A stretch of DNA of 64,000 bases, from assembly GCF_003334405.1 (NCBI RefSeq), contig NZ_QOWM01000015.1. The stretch is one strand, 5' to 3'. Numbering within the stretch: the first letter of the stretch is position 1; each line of letters opens with the position of its first letter. This document shows, one piece after another, positions 20,101 to 26,100 of this stretch. A program made the position numbers. The DNA comes from Escherichia coli. GTDB lineage: Bacteria; Pseudomonadota; Gammaproteobacteria; Enterobacterales; Enterobacteriaceae.

Positions 20101-23100
20101 CAGCCATTTAAAGCAAATGAAAGTCTCTGATGTAATGAAACTATCGGATTAAGAGTTAATTAATAACTGTCTGTTTTTTTATTATAAAAATAAACTAAAA
20201 GCACTACTGTAAATGGTGCTTTTTTTTGCGATTTTTACTTTAAACCGGCCATTTTTACACTTGCTATAAAACAGGGGAATTTCAGCTACTCTCAAGTTCC
20301 CTTGTTCTGTACTGCACCAACTTCGAGAAAACCATCCTGCACAGCAGCGAAGAACCTCCGCTTCAGGAGCTTCGCTCCTTTCTTTTCCCAACTGCTCGTA
20401 TAGTGACTTCACCGCAACGACAAGGGATAACGAAATGAAAAATCAAGCAACCCGCCTCATACGCTTACCAGAAGTTCTCGAACGAACTGGCTACGGAAAA
20501 GCCTGGATCTATCGTCTGATCAACGATGGCAAGTTTCCTGCTCCTGTCAAAATTGGAAGTCGTGCAATAGCTTTCGTTGAAAGTGAGATTGATAGCTGGA
20601 TTCAGTCTGTTATCGAAACAAGTCGAAATAATGTTGCTTAATTGAATTTAGGAGAGATTTTATGACTATCGAAGAATTTGTGAATGAAGAAAACCATATG
20701 TGTAATCTGGGCCAGGAACTATTCTTTAAAATTTTCGAGCCTGAATCGATTTATAATTTACCCAATAACGAGTTTAATAAAGAAATAATATATTGGCTCA
20801 GTCAGTATCTTGTCGGAAATTTGATACAACCTTTAGACGCGATCTCAGAGCTTAATGCTTCCAAACAAATATATGTTTACGAGACTTGGTTTTCGCTAAT
20901 TAAATGCCCTGATGAAATGAAACTCTTGGCGAAGCGGATAATTGAATATTTATTGGATTAAGAAATTCATATGGCAATGCAAAGTTTTGCTGCATATTTT
21001 AGATTAAAACGTTAAAGAATAACTTGCATTATTTTTATGACCGTTCTTTTGCAAGGCAGTGAGATGGTTTTAGGTGGGTTGGGTGTGCATAATATTAATA
21101 GTGTTAGGACGGTTTTTAGTATTAAGAAGTAATAATAATAGCCATTGGTGAAAATTATGACGGGATTTTTACCATGACATTTCATATTAATAAGTATAGG
21201 AAAGTTAAAATGAATAATTCAATCATAGTACCAGAAGATAAAGATTTTGTATGTGCGTTTGCGACTTCACCGAATAGCTTTTATGAGGCTATTGAATCCT
21301 ATCGTAATTATGTAGATCTAGTCCAAGAGATAGAGTTCGAGCACGTCTTTCTTTATTTATTGTTTTCTATAGTGGTCAATGGTAGTACAGATATTACGAT
21401 TAATGATGAAGTACGAATGTGTATTGAGCAGCTTGTCTATGAAAAAAATAGTATCAGAAATAATAATGCAGATAAAAAGATGTAAAGGCTGTAATAAATT
21501 ATCATGGGTACAGACAGCACAAGTCTGTACCTTCTTATTTTAATTCAACAGATAATGATACATGAAAATTATGTGCTTTTGATAGTGGTCATCTGGTTTT
21601 CTATAGTAAACATTATAGGATATAGGTTATCCTGAATTTTAATATTATGCTCTTTTTTATTTAAAAGAGCTGAAAAATACAGGATTTAAATGGTGTTGGT
21701 ATTTAAACTCAGTAGGTATAGTAACACTCGCATCAATCAGTTCTGTGATAGCCTGATAAAATTGAGTGGGTGTAATATGTATCCCTTCTTGCTGTGCTAT
21801 GGGCGTAACACGATGAAAAATTAGGTAAACAATGCTCTTATCTGGCTTATACGACGCGATTAATGTAAGCAACCAGAATACATTGTGAATAGTAGTGTTA
21901 AGATTATGACTTTCAACTGATGATTGATTATTTTGAAAGTAAGTGGAGAGTCTTTTTTGCATAAAGGTATCGTTTTTTTGTTAATGTTATCACTCGCGTG
22001 GAGAAAATTACCACGCTGTAATGTTTTTAAAATGGAATGCCGTCTGCAGGATTTCGTCTTCTGGAGTTTTTAACTGATTTTGTTTTACTCCAGGCACGAT
22101 AAAAATTAAACGAATTGGCAAAATCTTCTGTCTCCAGTCTGGATTTTCTGAATTTATCCATCAGATCTTCATTGAAACGACGAGGAATTCCCTTAACGCA
22201 CAAGTTTGAATTCAGATATACCTGATTATCTATGGTGTCACGAATAAGTATTTTTTTTCCAAATAACTCTTTGAATGCACGTGAAACATTTGATTTATTC
22301 AGCCCAAGCTCTTTGGCAGTACGTGACTGTGAAAAATCAGGAATAATATTACCGTAATCAATGGCTGAGAAGAGATAAATCACAATTCTAAATGCTGTAG
22401 GCGTCAAATCCATTCTGGCGAGTGTCGCCATATTACCTTTAAATACCATTGAGAAATCGTCCTTGAAGGACGTCTTTTTATAGCTGGTTGCTTTAATTTT
22501 TATTTCTTCTAGATCTTCGGGCATAACCTCTAATGCTTCTGCAATAATGGATTTTTGTTCTTTAGTTAATACAACACTTGTGATTGACATAATGGCTCCT
22601 TTTTTATTGTTGTGATTACAGACATGGCATATTTAATTTATTTGTCAATGGTTTTGATGATATTATTTTAATTATATCTTATTTGAATTTTTTATCCGTT
22701 CTTTGGTGGTGGTAATAGGTTGTAAAATTTGAAACGAGGGGTGCTAAATTTAACCATCACCTGTTATGTGATTGATAATTTTTGGTGCTGAAATTAACAA
22801 CGGCATATTTTGTATAATCATATGATTTTATTAGATAATTTTTGATTTTGATCTGCAAGATAAAAGAGTGATAAAGAAATAAGAAACCACAGTTTTGCAT
22901 TTGATCGATACTCAAGGCCTTGGTGTACCTGATGAAAACATTTTTATTATTGCTTTTCTTAAATAATATCATTTGTAAATTGAAGCCTGCGCAACTGTGT
23001 GTTACGCCCCATTGGGCTTCAGAACATCACTATAGTGTTTTCAGTCAGTATAAATACGCTTCGCGCACGAGTTCACAGTATTTAGGTTTACTGTCATTAA

Positions 23101-26100
23101 AAATACGCTTCGTGCAGAAGTTCAGAAAAATGGGGTTAGCTGTCAGCACAAATACGCTTCGCGCAAAAAAAAATCAGGAGGCTAAGTTGATCGGGAAAGC
23201 GAACACAGATACATGATTTACCCGTTTGCTGACTACGGCTCACGCCGGGACCCTTCGGAAAAACCCTTTCTGCTTCAGCGAGTGAGTGCTGCGGGCACTC
23301 AGAGGCGCTGCCAGGGAGACAAAATTAAGTTTTTCAACTGTTTGGTAAAAATAATTAACATTTATAGGTAGTCGGGGCGTAAGCCAGTGCGTAGCACGCT
23401 CTCAAAAAATATTCCTGTGGGTTTCTTATCTGCAATAGGGAAATAACTCAGATAATTGATATATGAAAAAACAATACAATCGGGAAGACACAACTTTAGC
23501 ACAGTAAAAGCTATTTGTATTTATGAGGAATAAAATATATATGAATAATAAAATATTTTTATTTTGCTATTGATTTTAATTTTTAAGATGATAGTACTTA
23601 ATTATAAAAACAAAATAATGGAGGAAATTATGAGTGCTATTAATGTGTTATCTCAGGAGGAAAAATTTATACATGTTGTTGATAAATTTATAACCCATAA
23701 TCACAACGGCGTTAATAACAATGTCTTTTATAAAAAACTTTATGTTCTCTTCGCCGGATATCATCTGAAGTATTTTTATTCACGGGCGCAATATCGCAAT
23801 TCGTGTTATCACGTTGATAATATCATGCAGATGTTTATGGGTGTCGTTTCTACCCTGAAGACCCCTCTGCTCAGGCAACTCGCAAACAGTGACACATTGC
23901 TGCATTGCCTGAATTCGCTCGTGAATTATATTTCAGGCAATCTGGATGAAGCAGAGCACATTTATGCTGATTTACTGGCACAGTATGAAAAGAAACGCAT
24001 TGCACGTTCTCTGGCTTATACACCACCAGGATCCGTGGTCAGGAAAAGACTGTGAGACATCGGAAATGCGCCGGACAAGGCAGAGTATGGCAGAGTGACA
24101 TAAAAGCAGTCGTTTCCCGCAAGATATTACCGGGCATTAAAAAGGCAGGATCCACCGATTTGGTGTCCTGCCTGGCGGGATTATTTTATTGTGGTCTTAC
24201 TTATCAACGACCTGCCAGCCATCATCTGTTTTGACCAGCTTGACAGCCGCTGTGCGTTTTTCGTTATCGACAACAGCTGTTACATTGCATTTATAGCTTT
24301 TATCCGATAGTTTTTCGCAGTCGTGTTTTTTGACTGATTTTAACTTCCGCAGCATGTCAGGCGTGATATCGTTTCTCGCTATGGATTTAACGATGGCATT
24401 CGTCTGCTCCACGACCTTATTCATCGCAGTGTAAATATCCTGCTCAGACGGTTCACTGGTGCAGCCGGTCAGCAAAAAAATGGACGCAATGAGTGTGGTA
24501 AATGCATATGTTTTCATAAAATAATCCCAGACGGTAGAGTACGTTATTGAAAAAGGCCGGTTTTCATCTTGCTGTTGTTTTCAGAGAACGTCCACTTGCT
24601 GACGGTTTCGCCTTTAAATTCGATTTCCAGCGTTTTGGCCTGCGTCTGTGAACCCCCGGTCAGCAGTCCAATCACGGGAATGAATGTGGTGGCATCAAAC
24701 TGATTGTTGTCCATCGAATAAGTCCATTGTTCATTGCCACTATCAAGTGTAGTTTTGGTTTCGGGCTGACCGAATGCGGTAATGATTTCTGATTTCGTTG
24801 TTTTATTTTTGATGATTTTCGACTGCAGACTTTGTGATGTTTCTTTTTTTAGATGCTGGTTGCCTGATGTTGAACAGCCAGAAATAAGTAAAGAAGAAAT
24901 AAAAAACACAGAAATCATGAATCTGTTCATAAGTTTTCTCATATTAATTTTTTATGTTTGCGGTGGTGTGAAATTAATATCATCTTATAAAAACAACTCT
25001 GTCTGCATATTTCTTTTTAATAATGCAGATAAGAATAATGACGCTGGCAAAAAACGTAATGACTGAGGCAGGAGTGCTGCCGGTCAATGAAAACACTAAC
25101 CAGGCGAGAGCTAATGCCACGAATTGAAACAGGAATGCCACACTGAGTGGACTTTCACCATAGGCCACTTTTGCATGGCAACCTTTGCAAACCCGCACAC
25201 CGTGTGGGCTTTGTGTAAAGCAGAAAGGGCAGCTAATCGTTTTATTATCCATCATGACTCCGTAGCCTGATTTAAGGTGATGTATTTTTGAACATTTTCG
25301 ATGAATGAACTGCTTTAGTAAAATTGCTTGTACCGATCGATGGATCTCAGGCGATAGGTTATATCTATTATAGCTAGATTATCGATCTATAAAAACGATC
25401 GATATCTTATTGACTATCACTAAAGTATGGACTAGCTAACTTATGGTGCAGGATGGTTGTTGTTTTTAAATGATTGTTCTTTATTGGTATTTGTTGTCAT
25501 GGGATGACAGGGTGTCAGAATATGTAGGTGGAGGATTTGGTGGAAAGGATGTGCAGTGGCATGTAACAGAGACATGCCTCTGCGCCTGAGAAGTGCCACA
25601 ATATGGACGAGCAATACAAGCCATGAATACAGACGACGCTGGCGGGGTATCTGACGAGCTGTATTGTGCAGATTGCTCCTGAGCTGGATGATACCCACTG
25701 TCTCCTGTTGTCTTTCCAGACGAATTTTTTCTTCAAGCTGATGGATTTTCTCCAGAATCGTTTCCCGGTTTGCAGCCTGCTCTTCAGACTCGCATGATGG
25801 CACTGGCACTGGCACTGGCACTGGCACTGGCACTGGCGCGGTTGTAGGTTCTATTGGCCTCTGGGCTTCTTTCAGTAAACTCAGATGCTCAGGCGTAAAA
25901 TCAATCAGTGCTTGCAGGGAAGACCAGCCATATTTTTTACCCAACTGAGATGCTTTAAAGGCAATACCCTGGTATTGAAATGAAAATCCACTCATTTTAC
26001 CCGTAGTGGCGATATTGGGTTTGCAGGTCACTCCTTCCTGTTCCAGTAAGCGAACAAAGGTTAGTAAATCGGGATGGTGTGTTAATGCATTGTCGAGCAG

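What the first reader, a model, noticed from the sequence alone, without database searches (positions are those of the whole stretch)
23052..23165. Iteron-like array: three 16-bp direct repeats at exact 49-bp spacing upstream of a Rep-like winged-helix gene
AAATACGCTTCG[C/T]GCA occurs three times with strict 49-bp periodicity in the AT-rich region upstream of ORF 22027-22590 (wHTH, RepL/MarR-like). This resembles a relic or active replicon module or an operator array; an island able to replicate after excision would be notable.
Basis: partly seen in the sequence, partly recalled or inferred. Interest (0 to 1): 0.5.

Follow-up and report, generated by a model that had tools for sequence, protein, structure and literature searches.

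The report
Repeated mini-hairpin sites beside island replicon
Three conserved 16-base sites spaced 49 bases apart lie in the control region of a small-plasmid-type replication module carried by a mobilizable E. coli genomic island. The neighbouring gene is a genuine plasmid Rep homologue, but these sites are probably not its iterons and look more like single-strand DNA priming signals.

Summary
AAATACGCTTCG[C/T]GCA occurs at 23052, 23101 and 23150 with exact 49-bp spacing, against 0.09 matches expected in the window.

The cores are under selection. Copies are 97% identical in the core and 50% in the spacers. The site is kept in one to three copies in E. coli, Citrobacter, Salmonella and Superficieibacter islands.

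The "Rep-like" call is right and can be sharpened. ORF 22027-22590 belongs to the pHW126/pIGRK/pIGMS31 plasmid Rep family (RepL superfamily, MarR-like winged helix) and has dN/dS of about 0.12. It sits in an integrative mobilizable element with a relaxase, a MobC-like gene and AlpA.

The "iteron" reading is not supported:
- Family iterons are AT-rich 17-20-bp palindromes at 22-bp period, next to rep.
- The island keeps such a site, GTTATG-N5-GATAAT, at 22763-22779.
- The island protein has the same recognition helix as plasmid Reps that use ATTATG-N5-CATAAT.
- Sister island clades with that helix lack the 16-mer.
- No DnaA box lies in the intergenic region.

On the rep-sense strand each core reads GCGAAGC, a "mini-hairpin" motif known at ssDNA priming sites. 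The motif is enriched in this family's rep-upstream regions, where the plasmids carry their ssi element.

My best guess, at about 0.37, is amplified ssi-type signals. Double-strand protein-binding sites remain a serious rival.

The parts
23032..23165 (.). Array of three 49-bp units (aligned copies 23032-23067, 23081-23116, 23130-23165)
   Evidence: the repeat finder family D1/D2. Relatives carry 3, 2 or 1 copies, always at 49-bp spacing.
23052..23067 (-). Core 1, AAATACGCTTCGCGCA. The rep-sense (minus) strand reads TGCGCGAAGCGTATTT and contains the GCGAAGC mini-hairpin (23058-23064).
23101..23116 (-). Core 2, AAATACGCTTCGTGCA. The minus strand reads ACGAAGC, so one stem pair is lost in this lineage; relatives have CGCGCA here.
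23150..23165 (-). Core 3, AAATACGCTTCGCGCA. The minus strand has GCGAAGC at 23156-23162.
22027..22590 (-). Rep-like winged-helix gene (187 aa), pHW126-like / RepL-superfamily initiator homologue
   Evidence: dN/dS is about 0.12.
22763..22779 (.). Family-type iteron-like palindrome GTTATG-TGATT-GATAAT, about 173 bp upstream of rep. Candidate true Rep binding site.
   Evidence: Found at the same distance in nearly all island loci of all three clades. Compare plasmid iterons ATTATG-AAAAT-CATAAT and the identical recognition helix.
22834..22851 (.). Second copy of the direct repeat GATAATTTTTGRTNNTGA. The first copy, 22774-22791, overlaps the palindrome; the two are 60 bp apart.
   Evidence: the repeat finder D6; collinear alignment to the plasmid iteron region
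22855..22888 (-). Invariant block. The rep-sense strand reads GGTTTCTTATTTCTTTATCACTCTTTTATCTTGC, which resembles the pyrimidine block that precedes the iterons in 2.7-kb plasmids.
   Evidence: Conserved in all clades. The alignment to L012 lies at the same distance from the ATG but is only marginally significant, 3 of 100 shuffles.
22982..23020 (.). Nested hairpin (GAAGCC/GGCTTC around GCGCAAC/GTTACGC), 11 bp from the array. Candidate ssi-like palindrome.
   Evidence: Conserved in all clades. DNA fold -9.2 kcal/mol, z = -2.34.
23235..23275 (-). Conserved block whose rep-sense strand carries CCGAAGG (23252-23258) and GCGTGAGC (23238-23245). Clade B has CGGCGAAAGCCG at this position.
   Evidence: motif classes taken from PMC13037366
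23274..23312 (.). Nearly invariant imperfect long hairpin (CAGCG..GAGTGC-loop-GCACTC..CGCTG). The stems are conserved and the loop varies. Function unknown; oriT or ssi candidate.
23374..23397 (+). Invariant block GGGGCGTAAGCCAGTGCGTAGCAC, with two mini-hairpin motifs on the + strand (GCGTAAGC 23377-23384, GCGTAGC 23389-23395). The minus strand reads CACTGGCTTAC.
23630..24055 (+). Divergent conserved gene (141 aa) of unknown function, always paired with the intergenic region
25441..26670 (-). Relaxase (Pfam Relaxase PF03432). The N-terminal domain is 43% identical to the relaxase of the IncQ2 plasmid pBRST7.6, which MOB-suite types as MOBP.
26667..27074 (-). MobC-like accessory gene (135 aa), overlapping the relaxase start
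   Evidence: Gene order and annotation of plasmid relatives. Its upstream region is not conserved.
19307..20641 (+). DUF6387 gene (19307-20152) and AlpA-family excisionase/regulator gene (20435-20641) of the island

Best explanation
The array belongs to the roughly 1-kb non-coding control region of a plasmid-derived replication module. The module consists of a pHW126-like, RepL-superfamily winged-helix initiator plus its origin region, and it is carried by an integrative mobilizable element.

The three 16-mers are not the initiator's iterons. The iteron-equivalent sites are AT-rich palindromes 170-260 bp upstream of rep.

The 49-bp units lie further out, next to a conserved hairpin, in the position where pHW126-like plasmids carry their ssi (single-strand initiation) element. 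On the rep-sense strand each core reads TGCGCGAAGCGTATTT and contains the GCGAAGC mini-hairpin.

The most likely function is therefore as amplified ssi/sso-type signals. When the rep-sense strand is single-stranded, these compact hairpins with their conserved flanks would mark sites where priming of the complementary strand starts. The strand could be single-stranded because it was displaced from a Rep nick, as reported for pIGMS31, or because it arrived as the conjugative T-strand.

Shown here: the repeat, its conservation, the family of the protein, the module's anatomy and the motif enrichment. Inferred: that the hairpins form, that priming occurs, and which strand is exposed.
For: 1. Selection on the core. 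Paralogous identity is 97.2% in the core and 49.8% in the spacer. Between window and Salmonella L014 it is 93.8% against 62.1%. Superficieibacter islands, whose flanking genes are only 65-68% identical, still have a single copy TAATACGCTTCGCGCA.

2. Protein family and its literature. The protein is homologous to Rep of pHW126, pIGMS31 and the 2.7-kb plasmids. In that family the REP module runs ssi palindrome, then CR, then 4 iterons, then operator, then rep. The ssi is dispensable, but its loss causes multimers and instability (PMC6854812; bioRxiv 10.1101/2022.12.05.519187).

3. Position. In rep-sense order the island reads GC-rich blocks, three repeats, nested hairpin, pyrimidine block, iteron-like palindromes, rep. 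This is collinear with the plasmids.

4. Motif. GCGNAGC/GCGNNAGC mini-hairpins are described at the phage G4 primase site, in RSF1010 ssiA (CCGAAGG) and in N4 ssDNA promoters with GAA or GGA loops (PMC13037366). The motif is enriched in rep-upstream regions:
- window: 5 found, 0.39 expected
- Yersinia clade: 3 found, 0.25 expected
- Cronobacter clade: 3 found, 0.19 expected
- pIGMS31: 3 found, 0.18 expected, all on the rep-sense strand
- pHW126: 3 found, 0.15 expected
All have P<=0.0015. Clade B has CGGCGAAAGCCG, the G4-type sequence, on the rep-sense strand.

5. Strand. The pIGMS31 nick was mapped on the rep-sense strand, which is the strand that carries the motifs.

6. The one loop variant seen, GAA to GGA in Salmonella, stays within the mini-hairpin class.
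Against: - Standard nearest-neighbour DNA folding gives only -2.1, -0.7 and -2.5 kcal/mol for the three cores, no better than shuffles. The whole array has z of about 0 on either strand. The claim of special stability rests on the literature, not on a computation made here.
- Core 2 of this window has lost a stem pair.
- The conserved flanks (AAATA, CA) and the near-perfect sequence identity fit a sequence-specific double-strand DNA-binding protein equally well.
- I chose the mini-hairpin motif after seeing the sequence. Its definition is independent, but the test is post hoc. The three copies are also not independent events.
- The CR of pHW126 and pIGMS31 is not found in the island (at least 7 of 19 mismatches). 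The DNA-level similarity to the plasmid origin is only marginal, 3 of 100 shuffles.
- No experiment shows that the island replicates, or by which mode. The replication mode of the plasmid family is itself disputed, with both theta and rolling-circle reported.
Confidence: 0.37

Rival explanations
1. One reading: the three 16-mers are iterons or auxiliary binding sites of the Rep-like winged-helix protein. They would serve either as the origin proper or as a distal handcuffing/control array.
For: - The protein is a bona fide Rep homologue, and its family uses direct repeats upstream of rep.
- The cores are strongly conserved and contain a weak dyad (TACGC-TTC-GCGCA).
- RepM and RepR also bind non-iteron origin parts such as CR, though weakly.
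- AT-rich segments flank the array.
Against: - Spacing is 49 bp, about 4.7 helical turns, against 22 bp in every plasmid relative examined.
- The core lacks the family half-site RTTATR.
- The recognition helix KSNVSRAFKEL matches that of plasmid Reps (PSNVSRAFKEL) whose iterons are ATTATG-N5-CATAAT. A matching palindrome, GTTATG-N5-GATAAT, is conserved at -173 in all island clades.
- Sister clades with the same helix have no 16-mer.
- Intact islands carry 1, 2 or 3 copies.
- No partial copy lies near the rep promoter, and there is no DnaA box.
Confidence: 0.15
2. The 16-mers are double-strand or hairpin binding sites for another protein. Candidates are the island's relaxase or its MobC-like accessory protein (an oriT-associated array), the 141-aa neighbour, or a protein supplied by a helper conjugative plasmid.
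For: - The region upstream of the MobC-like gene has no conserved inverted repeat or nic-like motif, so oriT is probably elsewhere. This 1-kb region holds the only deeply conserved non-coding blocks.
- Each unit reads, on the minus strand, small hairpin, then 6-8 nt, then CTGAC. That resembles the hairpin-plus-nic layout of oriTs; this comparison is from memory.
- The oriT region of pBRST7.6, whose relaxase is 43% identical, contains GCGAAGCGTA.
- Precise loss of 49-bp units with junctions inside cores would fit initiation and termination at tandem nick sites.
Against: - The 10-mer match to pBRST7.6 is at chance level (blast E about 10).
- Motif-positive loci form one clade in the trees of all four module proteins, so no protein is singled out.
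- The sister clades have a relaxase and MobC but no equivalent repeat at this position.
- Three tandem nic sites would be unusual, and no plasmid carries similar DNA.
- Unit loss is equally explained by recombination between 16-bp cores.
Confidence: 0.25
3. The array has no function of its own. It is an old tandem triplication of a 49-bp segment around one functional or fortuitous site, or a set of weak minus-strand terminators.
For: - Copy number drifts between 1, 2 and 3 in otherwise intact islands.
- One core is flagged as terminator-like, a 5-bp stem followed by TTTG.
- Two whole clades do without the motif.
Against: - A core at 97% against spacers at 50% identity requires selection, or conversion confined to 16 bp, in every copy.
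- The triplication predates the split of the E. coli/Citrobacter and Salmonella lineages, since the copy-specific spacers are orthologous.
- The stems are too short for efficient termination.
Confidence: 0.1

Closest known systems
[quoted passage not shown]
   Same: - Homologous MarR-like winged-helix Rep, 30-40% identity, with the conserved SNVS..F recognition helix.
- rep is preceded by an AT-rich palindromic site of the family type.
- Further upstream lie hairpins and GCGNAGC-type mini-hairpins on the rep-sense strand.
- A mobilization gene accompanies rep.
   Different: - The module is chromosomal, inside a 10-20-kb integrative element.
- It has one or two degenerate palindromes instead of four tandem 20-bp iterons.
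- The family's CR is not detectable.
- The non-coding region is about 1 kb rather than about 0.5 kb.
- The relaxase is MOBP-like (PF03432), not MOBV.
- The 49-bp triplicated unit has no counterpart in the plasmids.
2.6-2.8-kb cryptic Enterobacteriaceae plasmids (e.g. NZ_CP041107, NZ_CP072967; Rep 199 aa plus Mob/Pre)
   Same: These are the closest extrachromosomal Rep relatives, at 45-48% identity. The recognition helix is the same (PSNVSRAFKEL against the island's KSNVSRAFKEL). The pyrimidine block, iteron and ACAGGTG order is collinear at a similar distance from the start codon.
   Different: The plasmids have four perfect 22-bp-period iterons ATTATGAAAATCATAAT. They have no AAATACGCTTCGCGCA.
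ssi / mini-hairpin priming signals (phage G4 oric, RSF1010 ssiA/ssiB, plasmid ssi of Nomura et al. 1991)
   Same: - GCGNAGC-class compact hairpins on one strand of a replication control region.
- Several hairpins in a row; G4 has three.
- Dispensable-accessory behaviour is plausible, given the copy-number drift.
   Different: No sequence homology beyond the heptamer. Exact tandem duplication of a 49-bp unit is not a feature of described ssi elements. Priming activity has not been tested.
Iteron origins of theta plasmids (pSC101, R6K, RK2, P1; Rep_3/RepA-type)
   Same: Direct repeats upstream of an initiator gene, flanked by AT-rich DNA.
   Different: The period is 49 bp, not about 22 bp, and the repeats are not helically phased. 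There is no DnaA box. The initiator is not Rep_3 (Pfam E 0.12). Copy number varies freely.
Replicating integrative mobilizable elements (SGI1; PIMEs)
   Same: An island with AlpA, a relaxase or oriT, defence cargo and its own rep gene. SGI1 and PIME1 replicate after excision from a repA-iteron origin (PMC7433901; bioRxiv 10.64898/2026.01.12.698999).
   Different: The Rep family is unrelated (pHW126-like, not RepA/RepC). There are no trbJ/trbL or traJ genes. Replication of this island family has not been shown.

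Membership tests
pHW126-like plasmid replication module | Rep protein homologous to pHW126, pIGRK or pIGMS31 Rep, with a central MarR-like winged helix | tested here: met
   tblastn gives pIGMS31 at 40.5% identity (E 1e-21) and pHW126 at 30% (E 2e-7). Alignment A5. 31 of 56 family members hit Pfam RepL at E<=0.001. The AF2 model has pLDDT 88.9 with a winged-helix core, and Foldseek finds MarR-type folds only.
pHW126-like plasmid replication module | [quoted passage not shown] | tested here: not met
   The plasmids have them. The island has one conserved palindrome (22763-22779) and a 60-bp-spaced partial repeat. The 49-bp array does not fit in period, composition or position.
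pHW126-like plasmid replication module | Conserved region (CR, about 20 bp) adjacent to the iterons | tested here: not met
   I inferred the CR sequence here, from what pHW126 and pIGMS31 share, as CCCTTGMTATTACTSACTT. The best island match has at least 7 of 19 mismatches. A different pyrimidine block resembles the 2.7-kb plasmids only.
pHW126-like plasmid replication module | ssi-like palindrome upstream of the CR | tested here: inconclusive
   The nested hairpin 22982-23020 (z -2.34) and mini-hairpin motifs on the rep-sense strand lie in the right relative position. There is no sequence homology to the plasmid ssi beyond short motifs.
pHW126-like plasmid replication module | Autonomous Rep-dependent replication of rep plus the upstream region | not testable with these tools
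   Needs a mini-replicon assay. There are no plasmid records with this DNA.
Iteron-type theta origin | Tandem 17-22-bp initiator sites, helically phased at about 22 bp | tested here: not met
   The spacing is exactly 49 bp in all 14 loci that have at least 2 copies.
Iteron-type theta origin | DnaA box(es) and an AT-rich unwinding element next to the repeats | tested here: not met
   No TTATCCACA with <=1 mismatch lies in 22591-23629; the nearest is at 23677, inside a gene. AT-rich DNA is present on both sides, so this half of the feature is met.
ssi / mini-hairpin priming signal | GCGNAGC or GCGNNAGC compact hairpin motif on the strand that becomes single-stranded | tested here: met
   The motif is present in cores 1 and 3, and in all three cores of relatives, on the rep-sense strand. 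It is enriched against Markov simulations. Which strand is exposed is inferred from the pIGMS31 nick.
ssi / mini-hairpin priming signal | Primase- or primosome-dependent priming on ssDNA | not testable with these tools
   Needs an M13-based ssi assay or in vitro priming. Generic folding energies are weak.
Integrative mobilizable element (IME) | Integrase, a relaxase or oriT, no mating-pair apparatus, and site-specific insertion | tested here: met
   Relatives sit next to mutS with a 485-489-aa tyrosine recombinase (L003, L004, L016, L019, L032). Another sits next to lptG with a P4-type integrase (L017). All carry the relaxase and MobC-like genes. In this window no integrase lies beside DUF6387/AlpA; the nearest is at 38059-39432, next to ssrA.
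oriT (MOBP/MOBQ type) | Inverted repeat followed by a conserved nic sequence recognised by the cognate relaxase | tested here: inconclusive
   There is no conserved IR or nic upstream of the MobC-like gene. Candidate blocks lie at 23274-23312 and 23374-23397. The similarity to the pBRST7.6 oriT region is at chance level.

The most novel reading that the evidence does not exclude
A widespread family of defence-carrying integrative mobilizable elements of Enterobacterales has captured a pHW126-type replicon, which is otherwise known only from roughly 2.5-kb cryptic plasmids. The element would use it, together with a tandemly amplified mini-hairpin ssi array, in one of two ways: to replicate after excision, or to convert the incoming transferred strand to duplex DNA. 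The number of 49-bp units (1-3) would tune establishment or copy number.
Probability: 0.3. Interest if true: 0.55.

Novelty: new variant of a known kind. Interest (0 to 1): 0.4.

Why it matters
If the module is active, these islands are not passive cargo. They carry Kiwa, retron Eco8, restriction-modification and SIR2 systems in different hosts, and they would have an extrachromosomal, plasmid-like phase. That would affect their stability, dosage and transfer, as has been shown for SGI1 and PIMEs.

The finding would also extend the poorly understood pHW126/RepL-type initiators from tiny cryptic plasmids to chromosomal elements. The natural 1-, 2- and 3-copy series of a candidate ssi signal would then be available for experiment.

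As an iteron finding, however, the claim does not hold. The repeats are a modest cis-element whose function is still unproven.

Tried and rejected
- Rfam. There was no hit in 22500-23700 at E<=5, and only tmRNA, tRNA, the Phe leader and RyfD elsewhere. The small plasmids show no ColE1 RNAI/RNAII.
- Promoter and terminator scan. Counts were not above chance, apart from one weak minus-strand terminator-like site in core 3.
- Folding of the array and of the GC-rich region as DNA or RNA. Neither was significant, with z from 0.04 to -1.19.
- PDB sequence and fold searches. These gave only generic Cro/MarR winged-helix matches, which cannot separate Rep from regulator.
- Phyletic correlation of the motif with one protein. 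The relaxase N-domain first appeared to track the motif. Trees then showed that motif-positive loci form one clade for all four module proteins, so I rejected this as uninformative.
- oriT upstream of the MobC-like gene. The region is not conserved.
- DNA similarity to plasmids. None was found.
- Short matches to pBRST7.6 and a Pseudomonas plasmid. These were at chance level or fell inside coding sequence.
- Metagenome scan with the 15-mer. It returned only single chance matches, so the pattern was too short for that database.
- Viral-contig scan with a two-copy pattern. It found one more copy of the same island.
- One literature search was wasted because the term "RepL" matched "replication".
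- By inspection only, I considered and dropped Pho box, LexA box, KorA operator, cer/dif and IHF readings of the unit. Only half-sites were present.

Full report
**Observation**

The 16-mer AAATACGCTTCG[C/T]GCA lies at 23052, 23101 and 23150, exactly 49 bp apart. With up to two mismatches allowed these are the only three matches in the 64-kb window, against 0.09 expected, and no shuffle reached three. The repeated unit is really 49 bp, but only the 16-bp core is well kept. The array lies 462 bp from the start codon of ORF 22027-22590 and 465 bp from the divergent gene at 23630. It sits in a 37-49% G+C patch between two AT-rich stretches. The 49-bp period and the variable copy number rule out coding sequence.

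**Context**

The window is E. coli chromosome between ileY/ypjA and ssrA. It is 100% identical to strain FORC_064 over the queried 2.1 kb (22000-24100).

One module recurs in 147-152 of 5,426 complete E. coli genomes. It also occurs in Klebsiella, Citrobacter, Salmonella, Superficieibacter, Cronobacter and Yersinia. Its gene order is:
- winged-helix ORF (minus strand)
- about 1 kb of non-coding DNA
- a 141-aa ORF
- one to three small ORFs
- relaxase (PF03432)
- a MobC-like ORF

In some hosts the module lies beside mutS with an intact 485-489-aa tyrosine recombinase. In others it lies beside lptG with a P4-type integrase, DUF6387 and AlpA. Cargo differs between copies and includes Kiwa, retron Eco8, a BamHI-type restriction-modification system and SIR2. 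This is an integrative mobilizable element (IME) family. In this window no integrase lies beside DUF6387/AlpA.

**The protein**

Searches with the single sequence give only weak hits, but they are consistent: HTH_36, phage O N-terminal domain and Rep3_N. Homology searches are decisive.
- Proteins 45-48% identical are encoded on hundreds of 2.6-2.8-kb circular plasmids whose only other gene is a Mob/Pre relaxase. Each plasmid has four 22-bp-period iterons 130-215 bp upstream of that gene and no ColE1-type RNAs.
- More distant relatives include pIGMS31 (40% identity) and pHW126 (30%).
- 31 of 56 family members match Pfam RepL.

The literature shows that Rep is required for replication of pIGRK. 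It also shows that the origin is a conserved region (CR) plus four iteron-like repeats. An ssi-like palindrome upstream is dispensable, but its loss causes multimerization. Rep is a MarR-like dimer that also represses its own promoter (PMC6854812; bioRxiv 10.1101/2022.12.05.519187; PMC2831885).

The island gene is under purifying selection, with dN/dS of about 0.12.

**Are the 16-mers its iterons?**

Several independent lines say no.
- Family iterons are 17-20-bp AT-rich palindromes with half-site RTTATR or GTTGNNA, at 22-bp period.
- The two residues that follow the conserved SNVS in the recognition helix change together with the iteron sequence: RA with ATTATG, YY with GTTATAG, II with GTTGGTA, and KV with GTTGTCA. 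The island protein has RA, like the 2.7-kb plasmids.
- A matching palindrome, GTTATG-TGATT-GATAAT, sits at 22763-22779. It is about 173 bp from the start codon in nearly all island loci of all clades.
- The rep-proximal 300 bp is collinear with the plasmid origin, in the order pyrimidine block, iteron-like site, ACAGGTG. The DNA similarity is only marginally significant, however.
- The 16-mer is GC-rich and lacks the half-site.
- It is absent, at up to 3 mismatches, from the Cronobacter-type and Yersinia-type sister clades, although their recognition helix is the same.
- Intact islands carry one, two or three copies. The two-copy forms are precise recombinants between cores.
- No DnaA box lies in the intergenic region.

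**What are they, then?**

They are functional. Core identity between copies is 97% against 50% for the spacers. The copy-specific spacers are orthologous between genera, so the triplication is old and the cores have been held constant.

Read on the rep-sense (minus) strand, each core is TGCGCGAAGCGTATTT and contains GCGAAGC. A recent review defines GCGNAGC and GCGNNAGC as unusually stable "mini-hairpin" DNA. It lists their occurrence at the phage G4 primase site, in RSF1010 ssiA (CCGAAGG) and in N4 single-strand promoters with GAA or GGA loops (PMC13037366).

Using that definition, the motif is enriched in the rep-upstream region of all three island clades and of pIGMS31 and pHW126:
- 3-6 occurrences are found against 0.15-0.39 expected, with P<=0.0015.
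- In pIGMS31 all three occurrences are on the rep-sense strand.
- The window also has CCGAAGG and GCGTGAGC on the same strand at 23238-23258.
- The Cronobacter-type clade has the G4-type CGGCGAAAGCCG at that position.

The pIGMS31 nick was mapped on the rep-sense strand, so that strand would be the one displaced. The array lies where the plasmids have their ssi, beside a conserved nested hairpin (22982-23020, z -2.34). I therefore rank "amplified ssi/sso-type priming signals" first, at about 0.37.

**Weaknesses**

- Generic folding energies for the cores are small and no better than shuffles.
- Core 2 of this window has lost a stem pair.
- I chose the motif test after seeing the sequence.
- The family's CR is not found in the island.
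- Nothing shows that the island replicates.

A sequence-specific protein binding double-stranded DNA explains the conservation equally well. Candidates are the relaxase, the MobC-like protein, the 141-aa protein, a helper-plasmid factor or, less likely, Rep itself. The oriT has not been located. The region upstream of the MobC-like gene is not conserved, so oriT may lie among the deeply conserved blocks at 23235-23400 in this same intergenic region. Phyletic patterns cannot assign the motif to a protein, because motif-positive loci form a single clade in all four protein trees.

**Comparison and novelty**

The closest known systems are the pHW126-like REP modules. They share the Rep family and the general layout. 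They differ in iteron number, in the CR and in being extrachromosomal.

Replication of IMEs after excision is established for SGI1 and for the recently described PIMEs, which use unrelated RepA/RepC-type initiators and classical iterons. I found no description of a pHW126-type Rep in a chromosomal element in the papers I searched, but that search was limited.

I class the locus as a new variant of a known kind. The specific claim of an iteron array is not supported. Interest is moderate.

Noticed in passing
window 22982-23020: A nested hairpin (GAAGCC/GGCTTC enclosing GCGCAAC/GTTACGC) is conserved in all three island clades. It is the only locally significant DNA structure in the region (z -2.34) and lies 11 bp from the repeat array.
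   Followed up: partly
window 23274-23312: A 39-nt block is almost invariant from E. coli to Yersinia. It forms a long imperfect hairpin (CAGCG..GAGTGC-loop-GCACTC..CGCTG) whose stems are conserved while the loop varies. It is a candidate for oriT or a primosome assembly site.
   Followed up: partly
window 23374-23397: The invariant block GGGGCGTAAGCCAGTGCGTAGCAC carries two mini-hairpin motifs on the + strand, opposite to the strand that carries the repeat cores. Its minus strand reads CACTGGCTTAC, which from memory resembles the ColE1-type nic CTGG/CTTA, but these bases vary between clades.
   Followed up: partly
window 22855-22888 and 22739-22761: Two more invariant non-coding blocks lie between the array and rep. 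One is a purine/pyrimidine-asymmetric block that resembles the one preceding the iterons in 2.7-kb plasmids. The other is GGGTGCTAAATTTAACCATCACC.
   Followed up: partly
window 18859-19306 and 38059-39432: The island copy in this window has DUF6387 and AlpA directly next to ypjA, with no integrase beside them. In the Yersinia relative L017 a P4-type integrase sits there. The only intact integrase is 11 kb beyond the mob genes, next to ssrA, so this copy may be unable to excise on its own.
   Followed up: partly
window 34441-37782: Next to the ssrA integrase lie a large serine recombinase (520 aa) and two tandem ParB-like genes (298 aa each). This is an unusual trio that I did not examine further.
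   Followed up: no
window 30369-33388: A 704-aa ORF is followed by an overlapping 301-aa ORF with weak RelA/SpoT-like (GTP diphosphokinase) similarity and a faint PADLOC candidate hit. It may be a defence or toxin-type cargo pair.
   Followed up: no
L006-L012 (2.6-2.8-kb plasmids): A very common two-gene plasmid type carries Rep (199 aa) and Mob/Pre. One Rep sequence is listed in 315 blocks of the contig collection. NCBI annotates its Rep as a Crp/Fnr or HTH regulator. MOB-suite typing, as given by PLSDB, calls the plasmids non-mobilizable despite a Mob/Pre gene.
   Followed up: partly
OX345049.1 (L010) and OX345050.1: Two 3.6-kb linear Salmonella records labelled as plasmids carry the island-type rep (67% identity) and relaxase (70%). 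They look like fragments of a chromosomal island from a fragmented assembly, not like plasmids.
   Followed up: no
L014/L015, L017, L005, L032: Cargo of related islands differs by host: Kiwa (KwaA/KwaB), an OspG-like kinase, a BamHI-type restriction-modification system, SIR2 and retron Eco8. An ankyrin-repeat gene recurs next to the MobC-like gene in many E. coli, Citrobacter, Salmonella and Superficieibacter copies, but tblastn did not find it in the Cronobacter-type or Yersinia-type copies.
   Followed up: no
L016, L017, L029 at about -280; L014 at -292; L026/L027 at about -305 from rep: A further GCGAAGC or GCGGAGC motif lies on the rep-sense strand, between the pyrimidine block and the nested hairpin, in the Yersinia, Salmonella and Superficieibacter islands. 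It has been lost in the window lineage.
   Followed up: partly
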